Source of the DNA: a virus
Virus record (IMG/VR): IMGVR_UViG_3300017991_000051
Span: 1-64,000 of that record
DNA: 64,000 bases
Strand: one strand, 5' to 3'
The notes beneath the pieces are model-generated. The model searched no databases. It worked only from the letters and a program-made list of their open reading frames with translations, and had not been told where the DNA came from. Of the stretch, positions 4,005-60,218 are shown piece by piece. The stretch's first letter is position 1. Each line of letters starts with the position of its first letter. The translations under genes were made by a program, and so were the position numbers.

Positions 4005-5048
4005 TTATTTTGCTGCCAAGCGGCCGGCATCACCGTGCACGGGCCACCCGAAGTCGGCACGTCGCCACTTCATTGTATGACCGAGTTTTTCGATCACGTA
4101 CAGCTCCCTCGTGGGCAGACCCTCGTGGGTACGCCACTGTTCCCATAGGTGCGCAAGAAACACCTTCTTCACAATGCGCAGGGCAGCGAAGTAGCACCGG
4201 CCTTTGGGCCAGTCTTCCTTCTTGTCGTACTTCGCCCGCGCCTCATCGTAGACCCGGCGGTAGTGATAACCATCACCCGTCCGGATCAAACTCTCTGCGA
4301 TCTGATGCATGGTCACCTTCAACCGTGCGTTGTAGTGCAGGACTTCCCCTGCCACCGCGCGCTCAGCCGAGCGCCCGAGGGCAACGAGTTTCCCGTCCTT
4401 GATAAGCTGTCCGACGCTGACACCCTCGCCGAAGCGGGGGACGCTGACGAACAGTCGGTTCTTCTCCGTGTGGTAGGTGTACTTCTTACCGCCCTCGTCC
4501 ACGACTTGGGAGTGCATCCACTCGTCGGGCTCGCACGGAGTAACCTTCTTCGCCTTGATGAGGGCCTCTACGGTCTTGCCCCCGAAAGCTTCCTTCTTCG
4601 TGGTGAGGACATCGGAGTCCTGAGTGTACGGGTACTTCGCGTACTTACCATCCTTGTTCTTCTCCGCCTCGCGAGCCCACAACACCGGCGCATAGCCGGA
4701 GAAGCGCCACAACTTGCTGACGGTATCGGAACGGAAGATGTTGATGAGGACATACAGCTTCGCCGCCGAAAAGTAATCGATACCCTTCAGCTCCACGAGA
4801 TCCTCAACGATATGTACACCCTTCACGAGGCCGATCACGTCGCTGCGCAGAGACTTCTCCGTCTCCGCGAACTGCGTGAGGTACTTCTCCAACAGCGCCC
4901 TCTGCGCCGGGTCAGTACTGTCGTCGGCACCCTGCATGATCGCCCTTATCTGACTCTCGAGCCTGCAGCGATCCTTCTGGAACTGCCAGAATGTATCCAG
5001 CAGCGTTCTGGTGATGGCTCGTCCTCTATGCCAGTCCATGAATCCCAT
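4005..5048 (-). CDS. Nop-domain / IS110 C-terminal-like RNA-binding protein (TIGR-Tas TasA-like, no nuclease domain seen)
   Basis: coiled coil, then LKGID..SAAKL, SKLWRFSGYAP, YNARLK, YRRVYD, AALRIVKKVFLAHLW..WR..EGLP; about 110-aa insertion after SGYAP; no N-terminal DEDD/RuvC motif; GGAGG SD before the ATG at 5048. Confidence 0.7.
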   Translation of the reverse strand: MGFMDWHRGRAITRTLLDTFWQFQKDRCRLESQIRAIMQGADDSTDPAQRALLEKYLTQFAETEKSLRSDVIGLVKGVHIVEDLVELKGIDYFSAAKLYVLINIFRSDTVSKLWRFSGYAPVLWAREAEKNKDGKYAKYPYTQDSDVLTTKKEAFGGKTVEALIKAKKVTPCEPDEWMHSQVVDEGGKKYTYHTEKNRLFVSVPRFGEGVSVGQLIKDGKLVALGRSAERAVAGEVLHYNARLKVTMHQIAESLIRTGDGYHYRRVYDEARAKYDKKEDWPKGRCYFAALRIVKKVFLAHLWEQWRTHEGLPTRELYVIEKLGHTMKWRRADFGWPVHGDAGRLAAK

Positions 5049-5491
5049 TACTGATCGTCCTCCTTCTCCAACGTGACTGCACGCTTCTCCGGTGGAATTA
5101 CCAGACGCACGTCCCGCAGCCACTGCGGTTTGTAATACCCTTTGAGATGGTTCCACAACTCGACGACGTCGACGATGCTCTTCCCCGTGAACTCAACGTC
5201 CCACGCTGCCTCCCGGTGCGTACCCGACTGTTTGTTGCGTACCTTCCCCCAGCGTAGACGCTGGGCCGACAACTTCCTCCCGATCTTCTTCGAGAAGAGG
5301 TCGAGCGGAGAACAGTACGCGAATGCGATCCGGATCATTCCCTCCGGAATCGCTGGCGTCTCCTCCGACGCCTCCTTCGGTCCGATCGCATAAGCGGCGG
5401 TGATGATGCCGTTGTGCTTCGCCCCGTTCGTTCGTCCGAAATAGTAGTGACCGATCATTTCCTTTACTCCTCCGGTATCTTGCGTATCCAT
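5048..5491 (-). CDS. conserved phage hypothetical protein
   Basis: AFAYCSPLDLFSKKIGR motif of a kind seen in small phage proteins; start could be 5458. Confidence 0.55.
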   Translation of the reverse strand: MDTQDTGGVKEMIGHYYFGRTNGAKHNGIITAAYAIGPKEASEETPAIPEGMIRIAFAYCSPLDLFSKKIGRKLSAQRLRWGKVRNKQSGTHREAAWDVEFTGKSIVDVVELWNHLKGYYKPQWLRDVRLVIPPEKRAVTLEKEDDQ

Positions 5492-5987: not shown

Positions 5988-6542
5988 CTACTTGGCTGCT
6001 TTACGTACCAGCCTACGGAACAGCTTGTTTGCCTCTGCACGCACGCCCGCCAGCTCGCTGAGCGTACGATATTTGTTGATGAATGCCCGCAACTCGAGTA
6101 GAGCCTCATCGAGAACGTTGTAGCGTTCAATTGGGTCCGAAAGGCTCTGGCTCTCTGATGCGTACACACGGACCGGTCTTCCCGACCCACCAACCAACCC
6201 TGTATGGATCATCGCGGTTACGCGCCAGCTACGCTCTTCCTCTTCACCGTTCGCACGGATGACTACCTTCGTCACTGCGGCCATGATGTACTTGGCTTGT
6301 GACTCCCAGCACGTCTGTGCAGCTTGATGTATATTCCACGTGAACTCGGCGTGGAGCGGACACTTCGGATCCTTCGCCAACTCGACGACATCCCTCACAG
6401 TGTACTTCTTTTTGTTAGCCAGTTTGTCGATGAACTGACCAATCTTTTGGATATCGCCCTTGACGTGGTAGCCAGATCGCTTACGGTATTCGATACGCGC
6501 CCGGCGCCGCGTAGATTTCTTCGCCTTCTTCTTTGTAGCCAT
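5988..6542 (-). CDS. conserved partner protein of the phage Cas7/RAMP-like gene
   Basis: VVELAKDPKCPLHAEFTW...AA....QAKYI and ALLELRAF..KY..LSEL motifs; directly downstream of the RAMP-like gene. Confidence 0.7.
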   Translation of the reverse strand: MATKKKAKKSTRRRARIEYRKRSGYHVKGDIQKIGQFIDKLANKKKYTVRDVVELAKDPKCPLHAEFTWNIHQAAQTCWESQAKYIMAAVTKVVIRANGEEEERSWRVTAMIHTGLVGGSGRPVRVYASESQSLSDPIERYNVLDEALLELRAFINKYRTLSELAGVRAEANKLFRRLVRKAAK

Positions 6543-6610: not shown

Positions 6611-7360
6611 TTACTTCGCAGCCTTCTTCGTCAGCTGTGAAGGCGGCGTGAAGTAATGCAACGGAATCTCACCGTCCTTCTTCACGCGCGCAACCGCGTC
6701 CTTCATCTGCTTCTGGAACAGCTTCTCGTCCGCGGCGCCGGTACCGACATGGAACAGGCCGTACTGGCCAGTACCCGTGCTGGTCTTGCCCTGCGGGCGC
6801 CAGTCGCCGATCCCTACGTGGAAACCAGCGTGCTGGATCAGATTCAACACCTGTTCCTTATTCAGAACATTGGCGTTGAAGTTGATGGTCGCCGTGATCT
6901 TCCACGGCCAAAACTGCGGCCGGTAGCGAAGATCCATGACACCGCTCGCTAAGCGGACGGTATCCTCACGGCATGTACGCACGCCTTCGATATGCACCAA
7001 CGCACCCAGTGGGTCGTCGGCGTCGAACTGGACGAAGCACGCGCCCTTCGTCTGGGCCATGGCTACGCCATCGACGTACCGGCACGCCTCGATCATGCTC
7101 TTCTTGATGCAGATCGCGGGGATGCCGAAGCTGCCATCGGGAAACCAGTAGGTTGCCTGATGGTACTCCCCTTGAACGTCGCGGTCGGATTTGGCCAGTT
7201 TCGGCCAGCCCTGCTGCTTCGACCGAATGGAGTTCTTACTGGTGTCCGTCGGCTGGTTGGTGATGAGTGGAGAGTCACCGTACATGATGTACTCCGCCAT
7301 CTCCCGAACCATCTTCGGGACGTCGATTATTGCTGCTTGTTGTTTTGCTTTCGCTGGCAT
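6611..7360 (-). CDS. stand-alone Cas7/RAMP-fold protein (Vipr-like putative RNA-guided effector)
   Basis: N-terminal strand + GDSPLI, GIPAICIKKSMIEA helix, DLRYRP.F.PW, C-terminal Gly-rich loop AGFHVGIGDWRP...GQYGLFHV; GAAAGGT SD before ATG 7360. Confidence 0.8.
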   Translation of the reverse strand: MPAKAKQQAAIIDVPKMVREMAEYIMYGDSPLITNQPTDTSKNSIRSKQQGWPKLAKSDRDVQGEYHQATYWFPDGSFGIPAICIKKSMIEACRYVDGVAMAQTKGACFVQFDADDPLGALVHIEGVRTCREDTVRLASGVMDLRYRPQFWPWKITATINFNANVLNKEQVLNLIQHAGFHVGIGDWRPQGKTSTGTGQYGLFHVGTGAADEKLFQKQMKDAVARVKKDGEIPLHYFTPPSQLTKKAAK

Positions 7361-7488
7361 CGATGTACCTTTCGTAGTTGTAGGACCGCACAGAATCACA
7401 ATCGCTCCGCGCTAATCCAATAGTTGTTCGATACACTCGTCAACACCTGTACCCTGTAGCTTTACCTCCTTTCATTGGGTGGGTTGAG

Positions 7489-7520
7489 GGCGGAGGGACC
7501 AGATGTTACGTCCCTCCGCC
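7489..7520 (-). terminator. GC-rich hairpin closing the 3' end of the array
   Basis: ggcggagggac-N10-gtccctccgcc perfect 11-bp inverted repeat. Confidence 0.5.
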
Positions 7521-8846
7521 ATACTTACCTGAACGGGCCGGGCCGGACCTTGACTCGGCTAACCTTGCAACTGCATTCCACGCGGCTGACCAGCCTCCAT
7601 AGATAAGTAGGCCTGGGGTTTAGCGTCTCCCAGGAAGACACAACCGTCCTCGACGGGCCCCCGCCTGTCCCCTCATCACGGCGGCTAACAGCACCACGTC
7701 AAATCCGTAGCAGAAAATGGATCTGGGGTTTTGCGTCTCCCAGAAGGACAGAACAACACAAGGACTGACGAGGCCATAACTCACCGTCCTCACAGTAGCA
7801 GGCCTTACCCGACCCGACCTTTCCGTATCAGAAAAATAGGCCCGGGTTGTTTAGCGTCGCCTGGGACGACAAAAACTCACCCGACCTTTCCGTCATCAAC
7901 ATGCCGTGACGTTCGCCTACAAACGAGGCCACACCTTATCAAAATGAAATTGGCCTGGGGTTTTGCGTCTCCCAGGAAGACAGCACGAAACTAGCCCGAC
8001 AGTACCCGACACCAACCTAACTTACCCAGCCTCTACACGCGCAGCCGTGTCAAACGAAATAGGCCCGGGGTTTCGCGTCTCCCGGGAAGACAGGTACGTG
8101 GCCAGAACTAACCTCACGCACGACAACAGGCACGACCCGACCTGACCCAACCTGACCTCGTCAAAGAAAATAAGCCTAGGATGTTTAGCGTCGCCTAGGA
8201 CGACATCAACTCAACATACCGTGCCCGGCATGACCAGACTGCGCCGAACCCCGCCAAGCTGCACCAGGTCAAATGAAATAGGCCTGGGGTTTTACGTCTC
8301 CCAGGAAGACAAGTGGACGTACCTTGGCCGGCATTACCAGACCAAACTACGCCGCGGCAAGCCCGACCAAACCTCGTCAAATGAAATAGGCCCGGGGTTT
8401 CGCGTCTCCCGGGAAGACAATGCTCACAGCGCTATAGCATGCCGCAGCTCGCCCGAACAGGCGGCAACAGACCGAACCCAACGGCGCCCCTCCCAGCCGT
8501 GTCATAATAAATAAGCCCAGGGTTTTACGTCTCCTGGGAAGACAAGCTTTACGGACCCAGCCCGAACGTGCCTTACGAACGCTGACTTAACCAGCCTCTG
8601 CAGGCCGCCCCATACCTTAGCAAAGAAAGTAGGCCCGGGATTTAGCGTCTCCTGGGAAGACAGCTCGGGCCGTACCTTGCCGTCATTACCGTACTACACC
8701 ACGACTCAACTAGCCCGACCAAACCTCGTCAAATAAAATAGGCCCGGGATTTAGCGTCGCCCGGGACGACATACCCGTAACAAACCGAATCTTTCCATAG
8801 GCGAACCTACAGCGACGAACCCAGCCTAACCTAGTCAAATGAAATA
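7521..8846 (-). ncRNA. array of 12 putative guide RNAs built from GGY-NN pentamers, separated by 11 pseudoknot repeats
   Basis: about 40-nt repeats end (+ strand) at 7640, 7750, 7871, 7982, 8092, 8205, 8311, 8419, 8544, 8662 and 8771 (period 106-125 nt); intervening segments are 5-nt periodic, e.g. 8206-8270 minus: gacCT ggtGC agcTT ggcGG ggtTC ggcGC agtCT ggtCA tgcCG ggcAC ggtAT gttGA gttGA. Confidence 0.85.
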
Positions 8847-8847
8847 A

Positions 8848-8873
8848 GCCCGGCGGGCGTGAACCTGCCGGGC
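8848..8873 (-). terminator. hairpin + U-rich tail at the array 5' boundary; related hairpins at 5724-5750 and 5956-5979
   Basis: gcccggcaggttcacgcccgccgggc followed by ttatttcattt on the minus strand. Confidence 0.5.
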
Positions 8874-8960
8874 AGCTAACGAAGAGGCCCGTTCCAGGGT
8901 CGGTCTACCTCGCGTCACGGGCCAACGACACGACGTCCGATTGATTTTTGTACAGAGGAA

Positions 8961-9318
8961 TGGAGCCGCTGGGAGTCGAACCCAGGTCCGTTCGAGAGTC
9001 ACCTAGTGACTCATTCACGTGCGTAGTCGCTGATCTGTATACGGCTCATGCGACAAGCCTCTCACGTCTTTCCGTGATTGCCAGCTCTCCCGCTTTTACA
9101 CCACTGTGTTCGGGTAAGCATCCCACACAGCCGGCGACCCGATGTCGTCGTCAGCACCCGCTATCGGGCGTCACCGGGCTGACGATGGTGGCCTAAGCCG
9201 CCATAGGTAGTGCTTCGTTATCGGCACTTGAATGTTTCCGGATGTTTAACGAGGCCAACCGGAGTCCTCGGCACGCAATCACACAGATCCTTCTCGACGT
9301 CGAATCCATTACGGCCCC
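8961..9318 (-). ncRNA. ssrA: tmRNA, tag peptide (A)ADNEALPMAA
   Basis: 5' GGGGCCGTAATGGATTCGAC; 3' CTGGGTTCGACTCCCAGCGGCTCCA (CCA not encoded); tag ORF 9225-9193 GCC GAT AAC GAA GCA CTA CCT ATG GCG GCT TAG. Confidence 0.95.
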
Positions 9319-60146: not shown

Positions 60147-60218
60147 TGGTGGGCGGGGATGGATTCACACCACCGACCTCCGGGTTGTAGCCCGGCGCTC
60201 TTACTGAGCTACCCGCCC
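60147..60218 (-). tRNA. atypical tRNA (Val-TAC-like) with a 6-nt anticodon loop
   Basis: GGGCGGG/CCCGCCC-A-CCA acceptor, GCTC/GAGC D stem, CCGGG-CTACAA-CCCGG anticodon arm, T loop TGTGAAT. Confidence 0.75.

What the first reader, a model, noticed from the sequence alone, without database searches (positions are those of the whole stretch)
7987..8836. The NN dinucleotides decode, wobble base skipped, into motifs of PD-(D/E)xK (Cas4/RecB-like) nuclease genes
Seen, concatenating NN and reading each pair as codon positions 1+2. 8772-8836: ta ta tg tc gc ag cg at aa tc tt = Y-Y-W-S-A-S-R-I-K-S-F. 8206-8270: ct gc tt gg tc gc ct ca cg ac at ga = L-A-F-G-S-A-L-H-R-T-I-E. 8548-8621 = K-I-A-L-D-W-K-S-S-K-T-R-W-P. 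7987-8051 = T-x-V-D-W-K-S-G-R-T-R-Y. 8667-8730 = E-F-R-Y-D-V-V-T-K-T-K-T-P. 8314-8378 = E-F-R-F-A-V-L-L-K-R-K-T. SxS, GxxxH and DxK are standard motifs of the PDDEXK_1 family; KTKxP is one I recall from some members. Two regions are hit twice with different variants. Inference: guides recognise a gapped NN-x-NN-x target aligned to the reading frame, so synonymous escape is ineffective. They appear focused on a nuclease gene of competing phages or elements; no such gene is in this window. Caveats: I resolved two-fold ambiguous residues (D/E, W/C, K/N, F/L), and some units need one 4-nt step.
Basis: partly seen in the sequence, partly recalled or inferred. Interest (0 to 1): 0.95.

Follow-up and report, generated by a model that had tools for sequence, protein, structure and literature searches.

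The report
Phage VIPR guides targeting a nuclease gene
The two variable letters of each five-letter repeat do spell, wobble base skipped, the conserved motifs of a PD-(D/E)xK nuclease gene, because this is the guide-RNA array of a VIPR system, a CRISPR-like phage DNA silencer first described in 2026 preprints.

Summary
Observation confirmed and interpretation supported, but the mechanism is already published. Window 7480-8836 (minus strand) holds 11 complete guide RNAs and one degenerate unit. Each has 12-16 NN-GGY pentamers followed by a covarying pseudoknot tail. The array lies between a phage tmRNA and a Cas7-like gene (6611-7360). This is a VIPR locus (bioRxiv 10.64898/2026.04.26.720920, .720927, 2026.10.15.759431). 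In VIPR the NN pairs read double-stranded DNA, skipping every third base, which usually falls on the codon wobble position.

I re-derived the rule independently. Across 135 arrays next to homologous genes, only a one-base skip gave long exact matches (up to 12 dinucleotides). These were in frame in genes of related phages, while each phage's own copy was mismatched.

For this window, a single metagenome pattern scan returned one hit. It lies in frame in a 270-aa PDDEXK_1 nuclease gene. The best guide matches 12/13 dinucleotides, and 13/13 at protein level.

The target family occurs in up to 8 copies per genome in Verrucomicrobiota-group bacteria, inside a mobile-element-like module. No phage carrying it was found. 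The scan has noted VIPR at least 20 times on other DNA. Verdict: a new member of a known kind.

The parts
6611..7360 (-). vipr gene: 249-aa Cas7-like RAMP protein
   Evidence: No Pfam hit; phrog_4652. AF2 model has pLDDT 88. All top Foldseek PDB hits are Csm3/Cmr4/type VII Cas7 (E 3e-6, probability 1.0). Homologous to the SUSP1 protein AVU07_agp039 (E 4e-11). 125 homologues in the protein database, 261 in IMG/VR and 55 in bacterial and archaeal genome assemblies.
5988..6542 (-). Candidate accessory (vap-like) gene, 184 aa
   Evidence: phrog_15946. 25% identical (E 3e-10) to the gene that follows vipr in L010. No detectable similarity to SUSP1 vap1.
8728..8836 (-). vrRNA 1: repeats 8836-8772 plus tail 8771-8728. 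NN decode YY[CW]SA[RS]R[IM][KN]S[FL]T.
   Evidence: Hits the N-terminal motif wSfsslntf of the target family (16.5 bits, p=0.004). Best protein match is PHWSFSRINALV, 7/12.
8619..8727 (-). vrRNA 2: repeats 8727-8663 plus tail 8662-8619. Decode EFRYDVVTKTKTP.
   Evidence: 12/13 dinucleotides in frame in L215 and L224, and 11/13 in L227 and L220. 13/13 at protein level in P0344. 34.3 bits.
8501..8618 (-). vrRNA 3: repeats 8618-8545 plus tail 8544-8501. Decode KIALDWKSSKTRWP (one 4-nt step).
   Evidence: 25.4 bits on kvlvDwKtaarkWp. 10/14 at protein level in P0351. 9/14 at DNA level in L227.
8376..8500 (-). vrRNA 4: repeats 8500-8420 plus tail 8419-8376. Target not resolved.
   Evidence: Not significant against the nuclease profile (p=0.33).
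8268..8375 (-). vrRNA 5: repeats 8375-8312 plus tail 8311-8268. Decode EFRFAVLLKRKT.
   Evidence: Same target site as vrRNA 2, in a different variant. 19.5 bits; 9/12 on EFRFDVLVKNKT; 8/12 at DNA level.
8160..8267 (-). vrRNA 6: repeats 8267-8206 plus tail 8205-8160. Decode LAFGSALHRTIE.
   Evidence: 23.4 bits on llfGsafHkale. 10/12 at protein level. 9/12 at DNA level in L223 and 8/12 in L215.
8049..8159 (-). vrRNA 7: repeats 8159-8093 plus tail 8092-8049. Target not resolved.
   Evidence: The sense decode is not significant. The opposite-strand decode scores 18.5 bits on the Cys-cluster region (p=0.02), which does not survive multiple testing.
7938..8048 (-). vrRNA 8: repeats 8048-7983 plus tail 7982-7938. 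Decode T[CW]VDWKSGRTRY.
   Evidence: 16.9 bits on vlvDwKtaarkW (p=0.006). Alternative site is the C-terminal ACREWHRGRTRTL, 9/13.
7597..7937 (-). vrRNAs 9-11: repeats 7937-7872, 7826-7751 and 7708-7641, with tails 7871-7827, 7750-7709 and 7640-7597. Targets not resolved.
   Evidence: The pentamers and tails are present. No significant match was found. vrRNA 9 shows a sub-threshold likeness to the segment after KTKTP.
7480..7596 (-). Degenerate last unit with irregular pentamers, ending in a hairpin. No tail follows it.
8958..9318 (-). Phage-encoded tmRNA. Its terminator hairpin (about 8848-8875) directly precedes vrRNA 1.
   Evidence: Rfam RF00023 at 131.5 bits; ARAGORN tag ADNEALPMAA. Sequence read.

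Best explanation
Window 7480-8836 (minus strand) is the vrRNA array of a VIPR system.

Each vrRNA has 12-16 NN-GGY pentamers followed by a conserved 3' tail that folds into an H-type pseudoknot. The adjacent 249-aa Cas7-like protein (Vipr, 6611-7360) is expected to polymerise along the repeats. From the published structures, each subunit buries one GGY and presents the neighbouring NN. The NN pairs then read double-stranded DNA two bases at a time, skipping one base between pairs. Bound genes are silenced.

Because the period on the target is three, guides set in the reading frame read codon positions 1 and 2 and ignore the wobble base. Synonymous changes therefore do not give escape.

At least six of the 11 guides read invariant motifs of one gene family, a roughly 275-aa PDDEXK_1 (Cas4/RecB-like) nuclease. 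The motifs are WSxS...F, GSAxH, DWK...W and FRxD...KxK. Two sites are each covered by two guide variants.

That gene sits in a multi-copy, mobile-element-like module in Verrucomicrobiota-group bacteria. The phage has no such gene itself. Most likely the phage silences a resident rival element (or a nuclease that harms it) in its host.

Shown here: the anatomy, the homology to the published system, the one-base-skip in-frame matches and the identity of the target family. Taken from the papers: filament formation, DNA binding and silencing. Inferred: the biological purpose.
For: Anatomy:
- Tail pseudoknot: 97.3% of cells are paired, 4 pairs show compensatory changes, and 0/500 shuffles reach the observed value.

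Protein:
- Cas7/Csm3 fold.
- Homology to the SUSP1 gene that is flanked by one upstream and three downstream NNGGY RNAs.

Association of gene and array:
- 75 of 81 viral loci and 52 of 55 genomic loci carry a pentamer chain on the gene's strand, even in genomes of 25-45% GC.

The skip rule:
- Only gap 1 gives runs of 9 or more, up to 12. 63 of 68 such hits have the skip at codon position 3. The skipped base is any of A, C, G or T.
- Guides match relatives but not the phage's own copy: 6/12, 7/12, 7/10, 8/11 and 8/11.

This window:
- One metagenome hit, in frame in a PF12705 gene.
- Independent in-frame matches of units 8206, 8545 and 7983 to the same gene.
- 13/13, 10/12, 10/14 and 9/12 at protein level.
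- 12/13, 12/13, 11/13 and 11/13 at DNA level.
- Profile test z = 13.4. Guides fall on family-invariant residues.
- No self-target and no PF12705 gene in the phage.

Target context:
- 37 of 301 genomes carry the gene, with up to 8 copies, often at contig ends.
- The four copies in one genome share about 2 kb (79-89% identical); two of them share 4.8 kb at 98%.
- Neighbours are a clamp-like gene, DUF932, a Rep-like YagK/YfjJ_C gene and a Dda/PIF1 helicase.

Mechanism: bioRxiv 10.64898/2026.04.26.720920, 10.64898/2026.04.26.720927 and 10.64898/2026.10.15.759431.
Against: - Only vrRNA 2 reaches the papers' threshold of at least 80% NN match to a natural sequence. The other five reach 58-83%, depending on the level compared. 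The exact target genome has therefore not been sampled.
- Five complete vrRNAs and the degenerate unit have no identified target.
- Exact gapped patterns of three units found nothing meaningful in IMG/VR.
- Expression of the array, its processing and the host are not shown.
- The accessory gene shows no similarity to SUSP1 vap1, so the VIPR type is not assigned.
- The match for vrRNAs 2 and 5 in L215 was found by a pattern built from those same units. Independent weight therefore comes from the other units and from the homologues.
Confidence: 0.88

Rival explanations
1. The pentamer tract is only a periodic protein-binding RNA, as in TRAP, where a ring protein binds triplets separated by 2-3 free bases. 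On this view the NN are meaningless spacers, and the 'motifs' arise from resolving ambiguous residues freely.
For: NN positions are nearly random in composition (3.92 of 4 bits family-wide). A generic PDDEXK_1 profile gave only z = 1.2. Nothing was found in the phage's own genome or in the first IMG/VR scans. This was my own first reading.
Against: There is a gap-1-specific excess of long exact in-frame matches. The single in-frame metagenome hit lies in a PF12705 gene. One homologue matches 13/13.
Confidence: 0.01
2. The target is a chromosomal gene of the host itself, not a gene of a rival element. The phage would use VIPR as a counter-defence, or to switch off a host Cas4/RecB-like nuclease during infection.
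For: All homologues found lie in bacterial assemblies, some on contigs of 3-8.6 Mb. The L215 neighbourhood holds ordinary genes: FGE-sulfatase, RecJ and a phosphodiesterase. The protein gives weak PADLOC hits to DruK and Cas4. Close relatives were not found in IMG/VR.
Against: The gene is patchy (37 of 301 genomes) and multi-copy (up to 8 per genome), and often sits at contig ends, unlike a core gene. Copies share a 2-4.8 kb repeated block and lie near DUF932, a Rep-like protein and a Dda-like helicase. Published VIPR targets are overwhelmingly satellites and prophages.
Confidence: 0.2
3. The guides act on RNA (mRNA or antisense RNA) rather than on DNA.
For: The protein's closest solved folds are RNA-targeting type III and type VII Cas7 subunits.
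Against: The guides have the same sense as the coding strand, so they cannot pair with the mRNA. The papers show binding of double-stranded DNA, repression from either strand and an R-loop triplex.
Confidence: 0.03

Closest known systems
VIPR systems, type II as in Escherichia phage SUSP1 and the Pseudomonas fulva prophage (bioRxiv 10.64898/2026.04.26.720920; structures in 10.64898/2026.04.26.720927)
   Same: A lone Cas7-like Vipr gene. vrRNAs of 9-16 GGY/NN repeats capped by a conserved 3' tail with a pseudoknot. Several vrRNAs in a row. One-base skip falling on the wobble position. No self-targets. Many guides converging on one locus.
   Different: The proteins are only distantly related (36% over 47 residues). 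This array is longer (11 guides against 1+3) and sits upstream of vipr, directly after a phage tmRNA. The accessory gene is not recognisably vap1. The target is a PDDEXK_1 nuclease in an element of Verrucomicrobiota-group bacteria, not an E. coli satellite recombinase or a prophage regulator. Nothing has been shown experimentally here.
Codon-periodic targeting of an essential satellite gene by SUSP1 VIPR (bioRxiv 10.64898/2026.10.15.759431)
   Same: Guides follow the codon periodicity of a conserved gene across its variants, which blocks escape by synonymous mutation. Some guides are aimed at relatives' VIPR genes, which I also saw in L037 and L024.
   Different: Here several guides tile four motifs of one nuclease. 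Two sites are each covered by two variant guides.
Class 1 CRISPR effector backbones (Cas7/Csm3/Cmr4 filaments on crRNA)
   Same: The RAMP fold. One subunit per fixed number of guide nucleotides. A thumb that interrupts pairing periodically. Arrays of guides with conserved handles.
   Different: CRISPR pairs 5 of every 6 bases on both strands. It uses spacers acquired from invaders between near-identical repeats, and it needs Cas1/Cas2 and more Cas proteins. Here 2 of every 5 guide bases pair with 2 of every 3 target bases. No adaptation genes are present, and the tails vary with compensatory changes.
TRAP-type periodic RNA binding (trp RNA-binding attenuation protein; from my own knowledge)
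   Same: A constant triplet is repeated with 2-nt variable spacers, giving a 5-nt period.
   Different: In TRAP the spacers carry no information. Here they carry the target specificity.

Membership tests
VIPR system | A Vipr protein: a minimal RAMP (RRM core, G-loop, thumb) related to Cas7 | tested here: met
   Top Foldseek hits are Csm3, Cmr4 and type VII Cas7. Homology to the SUSP1 Vipr gene: tblastn E 6e-4, pairwise E 4e-11.
VIPR system | vrRNAs made of about 9-16 tandem pentamers with conserved GGY and hypervariable NN | tested here: met
   11 units of 12-16 pentamers. Position 3 is G in 72%, position 4 is G in 79%, position 5 is Y in 88%. NN entropy is 3.82 bits.
VIPR system | A conserved structured 3' tail after the repeat tract (a pseudoknot in the SUSP1 clade) | tested here: met
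   Alignment of 11 tails. The H-type pseudoknot has 97.3% paired cells and 4 covarying pairs; 0/500 shuffles reach this.
VIPR system | Natural targets obey the 1-nt skip rule, with the skip mostly at the codon wobble position | tested here: met
   Family-wide, only gap 1 gives runs of 9 or more, and 63 of 68 are in frame. In this window: 12/13 in L215 and L224, in frame.
VIPR system | No self-targeting at 80% or more NN match | tested here: met
   The best matches in the phage's own 169-kb genome equal the shuffled controls for gaps 0-3.
VIPR system | An adjacent vap accessory gene | tested here: inconclusive
   ORF 5988-6542 is homologous to the gene after vipr in L010, but not to SUSP1 vap1. 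The papers' vap families were not available for comparison.
VIPR system | vrRNAs are expressed, co-purify with Vipr, bind dsDNA and repress transcription | not testable with these tools
No experiments were possible.
CRISPR-Cas | Near-identical direct repeats separating acquired contiguous spacers, with cas1/cas2 or an effector module | tested here: not met
   The tails vary, with compensatory changes. The guides are gapped pentamers. The neighbours give no Cas hits in Pfam or PHROGs.
Target gene: PDDEXK_1 (PF12705) nuclease | The Pfam model is matched above its cut-off, and the catalytic and Cys-cluster motifs are present | tested here: met
   L215 ORF: 85.2 bits against a cut-off of 22. L252 copy: 78.4 bits. 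Invariant G51, H55, E146, D148, D162, K164, Q180 and three Cys.

The most novel reading that the evidence does not exclude
This phage devotes at least half of an 11-guide VIPR array to silencing one nuclease gene. That gene belongs to a so-far undescribed multi-copy element of Verrucomicrobiota-group bacteria (clamp-like gene, PDDEXK_1 nuclease, DUF932, Rep-like gene, Dda helicase). The nuclease may act against the phage, which would make VIPR a phage counter-defence rather than only a weapon between viruses.
Probability: 0.2. Interest if true: 0.55.

Novelty: new member of a known kind. Interest (0 to 1): 0.35.

Why it matters
The finding independently confirms, from raw sequence and public data alone, the published 'read two, skip one' code of VIPR guides. 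It shows the code at work in an uncultured 169-kb sediment phage far from the E. coli and Pseudomonas models.

The specific addition is a target class not named in the preprints I read. Several guides tile the invariant motifs of a Cas4/RecB-like PD-(D/E)xK nuclease, and that nuclease is carried by a multi-copy element of Verrucomicrobiota-group bacteria. This gives a host lead for the phage. It also gives a testable case of guide redundancy: two variant guides per site, which looks like coverage of target alleles.

The finding does not change what is known about the mechanism.

Tried and rejected
- TRAP-like 'free spacer' reading. This was my first hypothesis. It was rejected by the gap-specific matches.
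- Exact gapped patterns in IMG/VR. The 22-base pattern of unit 8206 gave 0 hits. The 18-base pattern of unit 7983 gave 0 hits. The 18-base pattern of unit 8772 gave 5 hits (2 distinct sequences), all outside long ORFs. The merged D-W-K pattern gave 3 chance hits.
- blastn of the array against GenBank phages found nothing.
- A generic PDDEXK_1 profile from 69 mostly AddB/AddA-type domains gave z = 1.2. DNA-level matching to those domains was at noise level. Its only use was the L152 lead.
- The L152-type nuclease family of Planctomycetes (120 proteins) gave at most 7/13, which is not above shuffles. It is a related family but not the target.
- PF12705 was not found in five related VIPR-carrying viral records.
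- Opposite-strand decoding of all units gave only weak hints for units 8093 and 8772 (p about 0.02), which do not survive multiple testing.
- The first literature searches, on pentanucleotide periodicity and on Cas7-like filaments, found nothing relevant.
As a result I have no contexts for the protein-database hits and no read evidence.
- Genome G050 is flagged as unpublished.
Full report
**What is there**

The window is the first 64 kb of a complete 169,252-bp virus record with direct terminal repeats. A tmRNA gene lies on the minus strand at 8958-9318. Directly after its terminator hairpin, still on the minus strand, comes an array running from 8836 down to about 7480. It holds eleven complete units and one degenerate last unit.

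Each unit is a tract of 12-16 pentamers of the form NN-(G/A/T)-G-(C/T), followed by a 42-46-nt conserved segment, TGTC...CCTATTTCATTTGAC. Aligning the eleven conserved segments shows an H-type pseudoknot: columns 2-5 pair with 13-16, and columns 7-12 pair with 26-31. In this fold 97.3% of cells are paired, four pairs show compensatory changes, and none of 500 shuffles reaches the observed value.

Next on the same strand is a 249-aa gene (6611-7360) with no Pfam hit. After it comes a 184-aa gene (5988-6542).

For 8548-8621 my automatic parse preferred another register.

**What the protein and the array are**

The AF2 model of the 249-aa protein has pLDDT 88. Its best matches in the PDB are all Csm3, Cmr4 and type VII Cas7 backbone subunits (E 3e-6, probability 1.0).

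The family is large: 125 homologues in the protein database, 261 in IMG/VR, and 55 in bacterial and archaeal genome assemblies of many phyla. In 75 of 81 viral loci and 52 of 55 genomic loci, a chain of 13-196 NN-GGY pentamers lies on the gene's own strand. It sits directly upstream or within about 1.2 kb downstream, even in genomes of 25-45% G+C.

Over 4186 pentamers from the viral loci, position 3 is G in 88%, position 4 is G in 86%, and position 5 is C/T in 88%. The NN positions carry 3.92 of 4 bits of entropy.

**Testing the gapped code without prior knowledge**

My first guess was a TRAP-like periodic protein-binding RNA with meaningless spacers. I scanned them against about 1.5 Mb of fetched loci, with the arrays masked, allowing 0-4 skipped bases between pairs.

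- Gaps 0, 2, 3 and 4 gave no exact run longer than 8. Gap 1 gave runs up to 12.
- With a mismatch-tolerant score, gap 1 gave 68 hits of score 9 or more, from 7 guides. The other gaps gave none.
- 63 of those 68 hits have the skipped base at codon position 3 of a long open frame. The skipped base is any of the four letters.

Examples of what the guides spell:
- The L037 array spells REDMVRVGMGTA, the most conserved motif of the Cas7-like protein itself, and matches 74 different genes.
- L024 spells MLDKQMKKAKQM.
- L061 spells GLIRAVVAVY, which lies in the gene following vipr.

In each case the phage's own copy of the site is mismatched at the read positions. For L037 the own sequence is REDMVRLNLATA, 6/12. 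The guides therefore read relatives, not self.

**The window's own target**

Nothing in the phage's own genome matches any guide at any gap, and the phage has no PF12705 gene. Exact gapped patterns of three units found nothing meaningful in IMG/VR. A generic PDDEXK_1 profile built from 69 mostly AddB/AddA-type domains gave only z = 1.2.

A weak lead from a stand-alone nuclease (L152, VEFTVLVKTKTP) suggested a particular subfamily. I merged the two paralogous units 8663 and 8312 into one degenerate gapped pattern of about 41 bits. I spent the single metagenome scan on it, and it returned one hit, L215.

That hit lies in frame in a 270-aa ORF that scores 85.2 bits on PF12705 against a cut-off of 22.
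- Unit 8206 matches 8/12 at LVFGSAFHRTLE.
- Unit 8545 matches 7/14 and unit 7983 matches 6/13 at IVDWKSAARRWP.
- Each has p <= 0.007 against 300 shuffles. The other frames and the reverse strand stay at noise.

Among 120 homologues of this protein, the best matches at protein level are:
- Unit 8663: 13/13 (EFRYDVVTKTKTP in P0344).
- Unit 8206: 10/12.
- Unit 8545: 10/14.
- Unit 8312: 9/12.

At DNA level, in genomes of the Verrucomicrobiota group, unit 8663 matches 12/13 in L224 and 11/13 in L227 and L220.

The guides fall on family-invariant residues: S16, S18, G51, H55, D162, W163, K164, W170, F198, R199, D201, K205 and K207.

Unit 7983 is ambiguous between the D-W-K motif and a C-terminal motif. 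Five complete units and the degenerate one remain without a target.

**What carries the target**

The nuclease was found in 37 of 301 genomes sampled from the phylum of a Lentisphaerae assembly. It occurs in up to 8 copies per genome, often at contig ends. In one genome the four copies share about 2 kb at 79-89% identity, and two of them share 4.8 kb at 98%.

The conserved neighbours are a Sel1-repeat gene, a sliding-clamp-like gene, a 145-aa ORF and DUF932. Nearby lie a YagK/YfjJ_C Rep-like gene and a Dda/PIF1 helicase. The clamp-like gene, small ORF and nuclease appear in the same order in L215.

This looks like an integrated mobile element, but its ends were not defined. Only four distant relatives (23-30% identity) turned up in IMG/VR. 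'Competing elements' therefore fits better than 'competing phages', and a host gene is not excluded.

**Comparison with what is known**

A literature search found three 2026 preprints that describe exactly this system.

The first is bioRxiv 10.64898/2026.04.26.720920. VIPR systems consist of a Vipr RAMP protein and vrRNAs of 9-16 GGY/NN repeats followed by a 3' tail, which is a pseudoknot in the SUSP1 clade. The preprint reports that:
- the NN pairs read double-stranded DNA with a one-nucleotide skip;
- the skip bases fall overwhelmingly on wobble positions;
- no PAM is needed;
- no self-targets are found;
- the natural targets are satellites, prophages and other VIPR systems.

The second (.720927) gives cryo-EM structures. 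A Vipr filament buries each GGY and presents the NN, and an R-loop triplex forms on the target. The third (2026.10.15.759431) shows that codon-periodic targeting blocks mutational escape.

The window's protein is homologous to the SUSP1 gene. In the SUSP1 record that gene is flanked by one upstream and three downstream NN-GGY RNAs, as the paper describes.

None of the terms RecB, Cas4 or exonuclease occurs in the first paper. The target class found here is therefore not described in that paper; I did not run the same term search on the other two preprints.

The scan's own notes list at least 20 earlier VIPR findings on other DNA. They also hold two related notes on this genome.

**Verdict**

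However, the mechanism was published in 2026. This is a well-supported new member of a known kind. The modest new points are an 11-guide array abutting a phage tmRNA, at least six guides tiling one PDDEXK_1 nuclease of a multi-copy element, and a lead to a PVC-group host.

Expression, processing, binding and the biological purpose were not tested here.

Noticed in passing
window 8837-8880 and the tails, e.g. 8728-8742: The sequence after the tmRNA terminator hairpin (CTTATTTCATTTGAC) is nearly the same as the 3' end of every vrRNA tail (CCTATTTCATTTGAC). The first guide thus starts as if the tmRNA terminator stood in for a preceding tail. This may matter for how the guides are processed or started.
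   Followed up: no
L037:5049-5211 with L037:4343-4378; also L024, L061, L097, L051: Guides in other phages spell the consensus motif of the vipr gene, or of neighbouring genes, of relatives. The phage's own copy is changed at exactly the read positions: REDMVRVGMGTA in the guide against REDMVRLNLATA in the own gene. This looks like weapon-plus-resistant-allele pairs.
   Followed up: partly
L250-L253 (four copies in genome G138); L215:4113-9687: A multi-copy module in Verrucomicrobiota-group genomes: Sel1-repeat gene, sliding-clamp-like gene (phrog_947), a 145-aa ORF, a PDDEXK_1 nuclease and DUF932. A YagK/YfjJ_C Rep-like gene and a Dda/PIF1 helicase lie nearby. It is probably an undescribed integrative element. 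Its ends were not mapped.
   Followed up: partly
window 4005-5156 (minus strand): A 383-aa ORF two genes beyond the vap-like gene hits phrog_4285 ('transposase', E 4e-29) but no Pfam family. Whether it belongs to the VIPR locus is unknown.
   Followed up: no
window 60147-60218 (minus strand): A tRNA gene (Rfam 53.5 bits) for which ARAGORN could not assign an amino acid (odd anticodon loop).
   Followed up: no
window 8093-8159 (vrRNA 7): Read on the opposite strand, this guide scores 18.5 bits on the Cys-cluster region of the same nuclease family (p about 0.02, not corrected for multiple tests). Published VIPR targets occur on both strands, so it may be a seventh guide to the same gene.
   Followed up: partly
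GenBank phages: NC_023580.1 36988-37560 and other Mycobacterium phages; MW534375.1 10364-10939 (Gordonia phage ODay): Cultured Mycobacterium smegmatis and Gordonia phages carry Vipr homologues 33-38% identical to the window's protein, all annotated as hypothetical. They are closer laboratory models than SUSP1.
   Followed up: no
window 7480-7596: The last unit has irregular pentamers and no pseudoknot tail, and it ends in a GGAGGGAC...GTCCCTCC hairpin. It is either a decayed guide or the array's terminator region.
   Followed up: no
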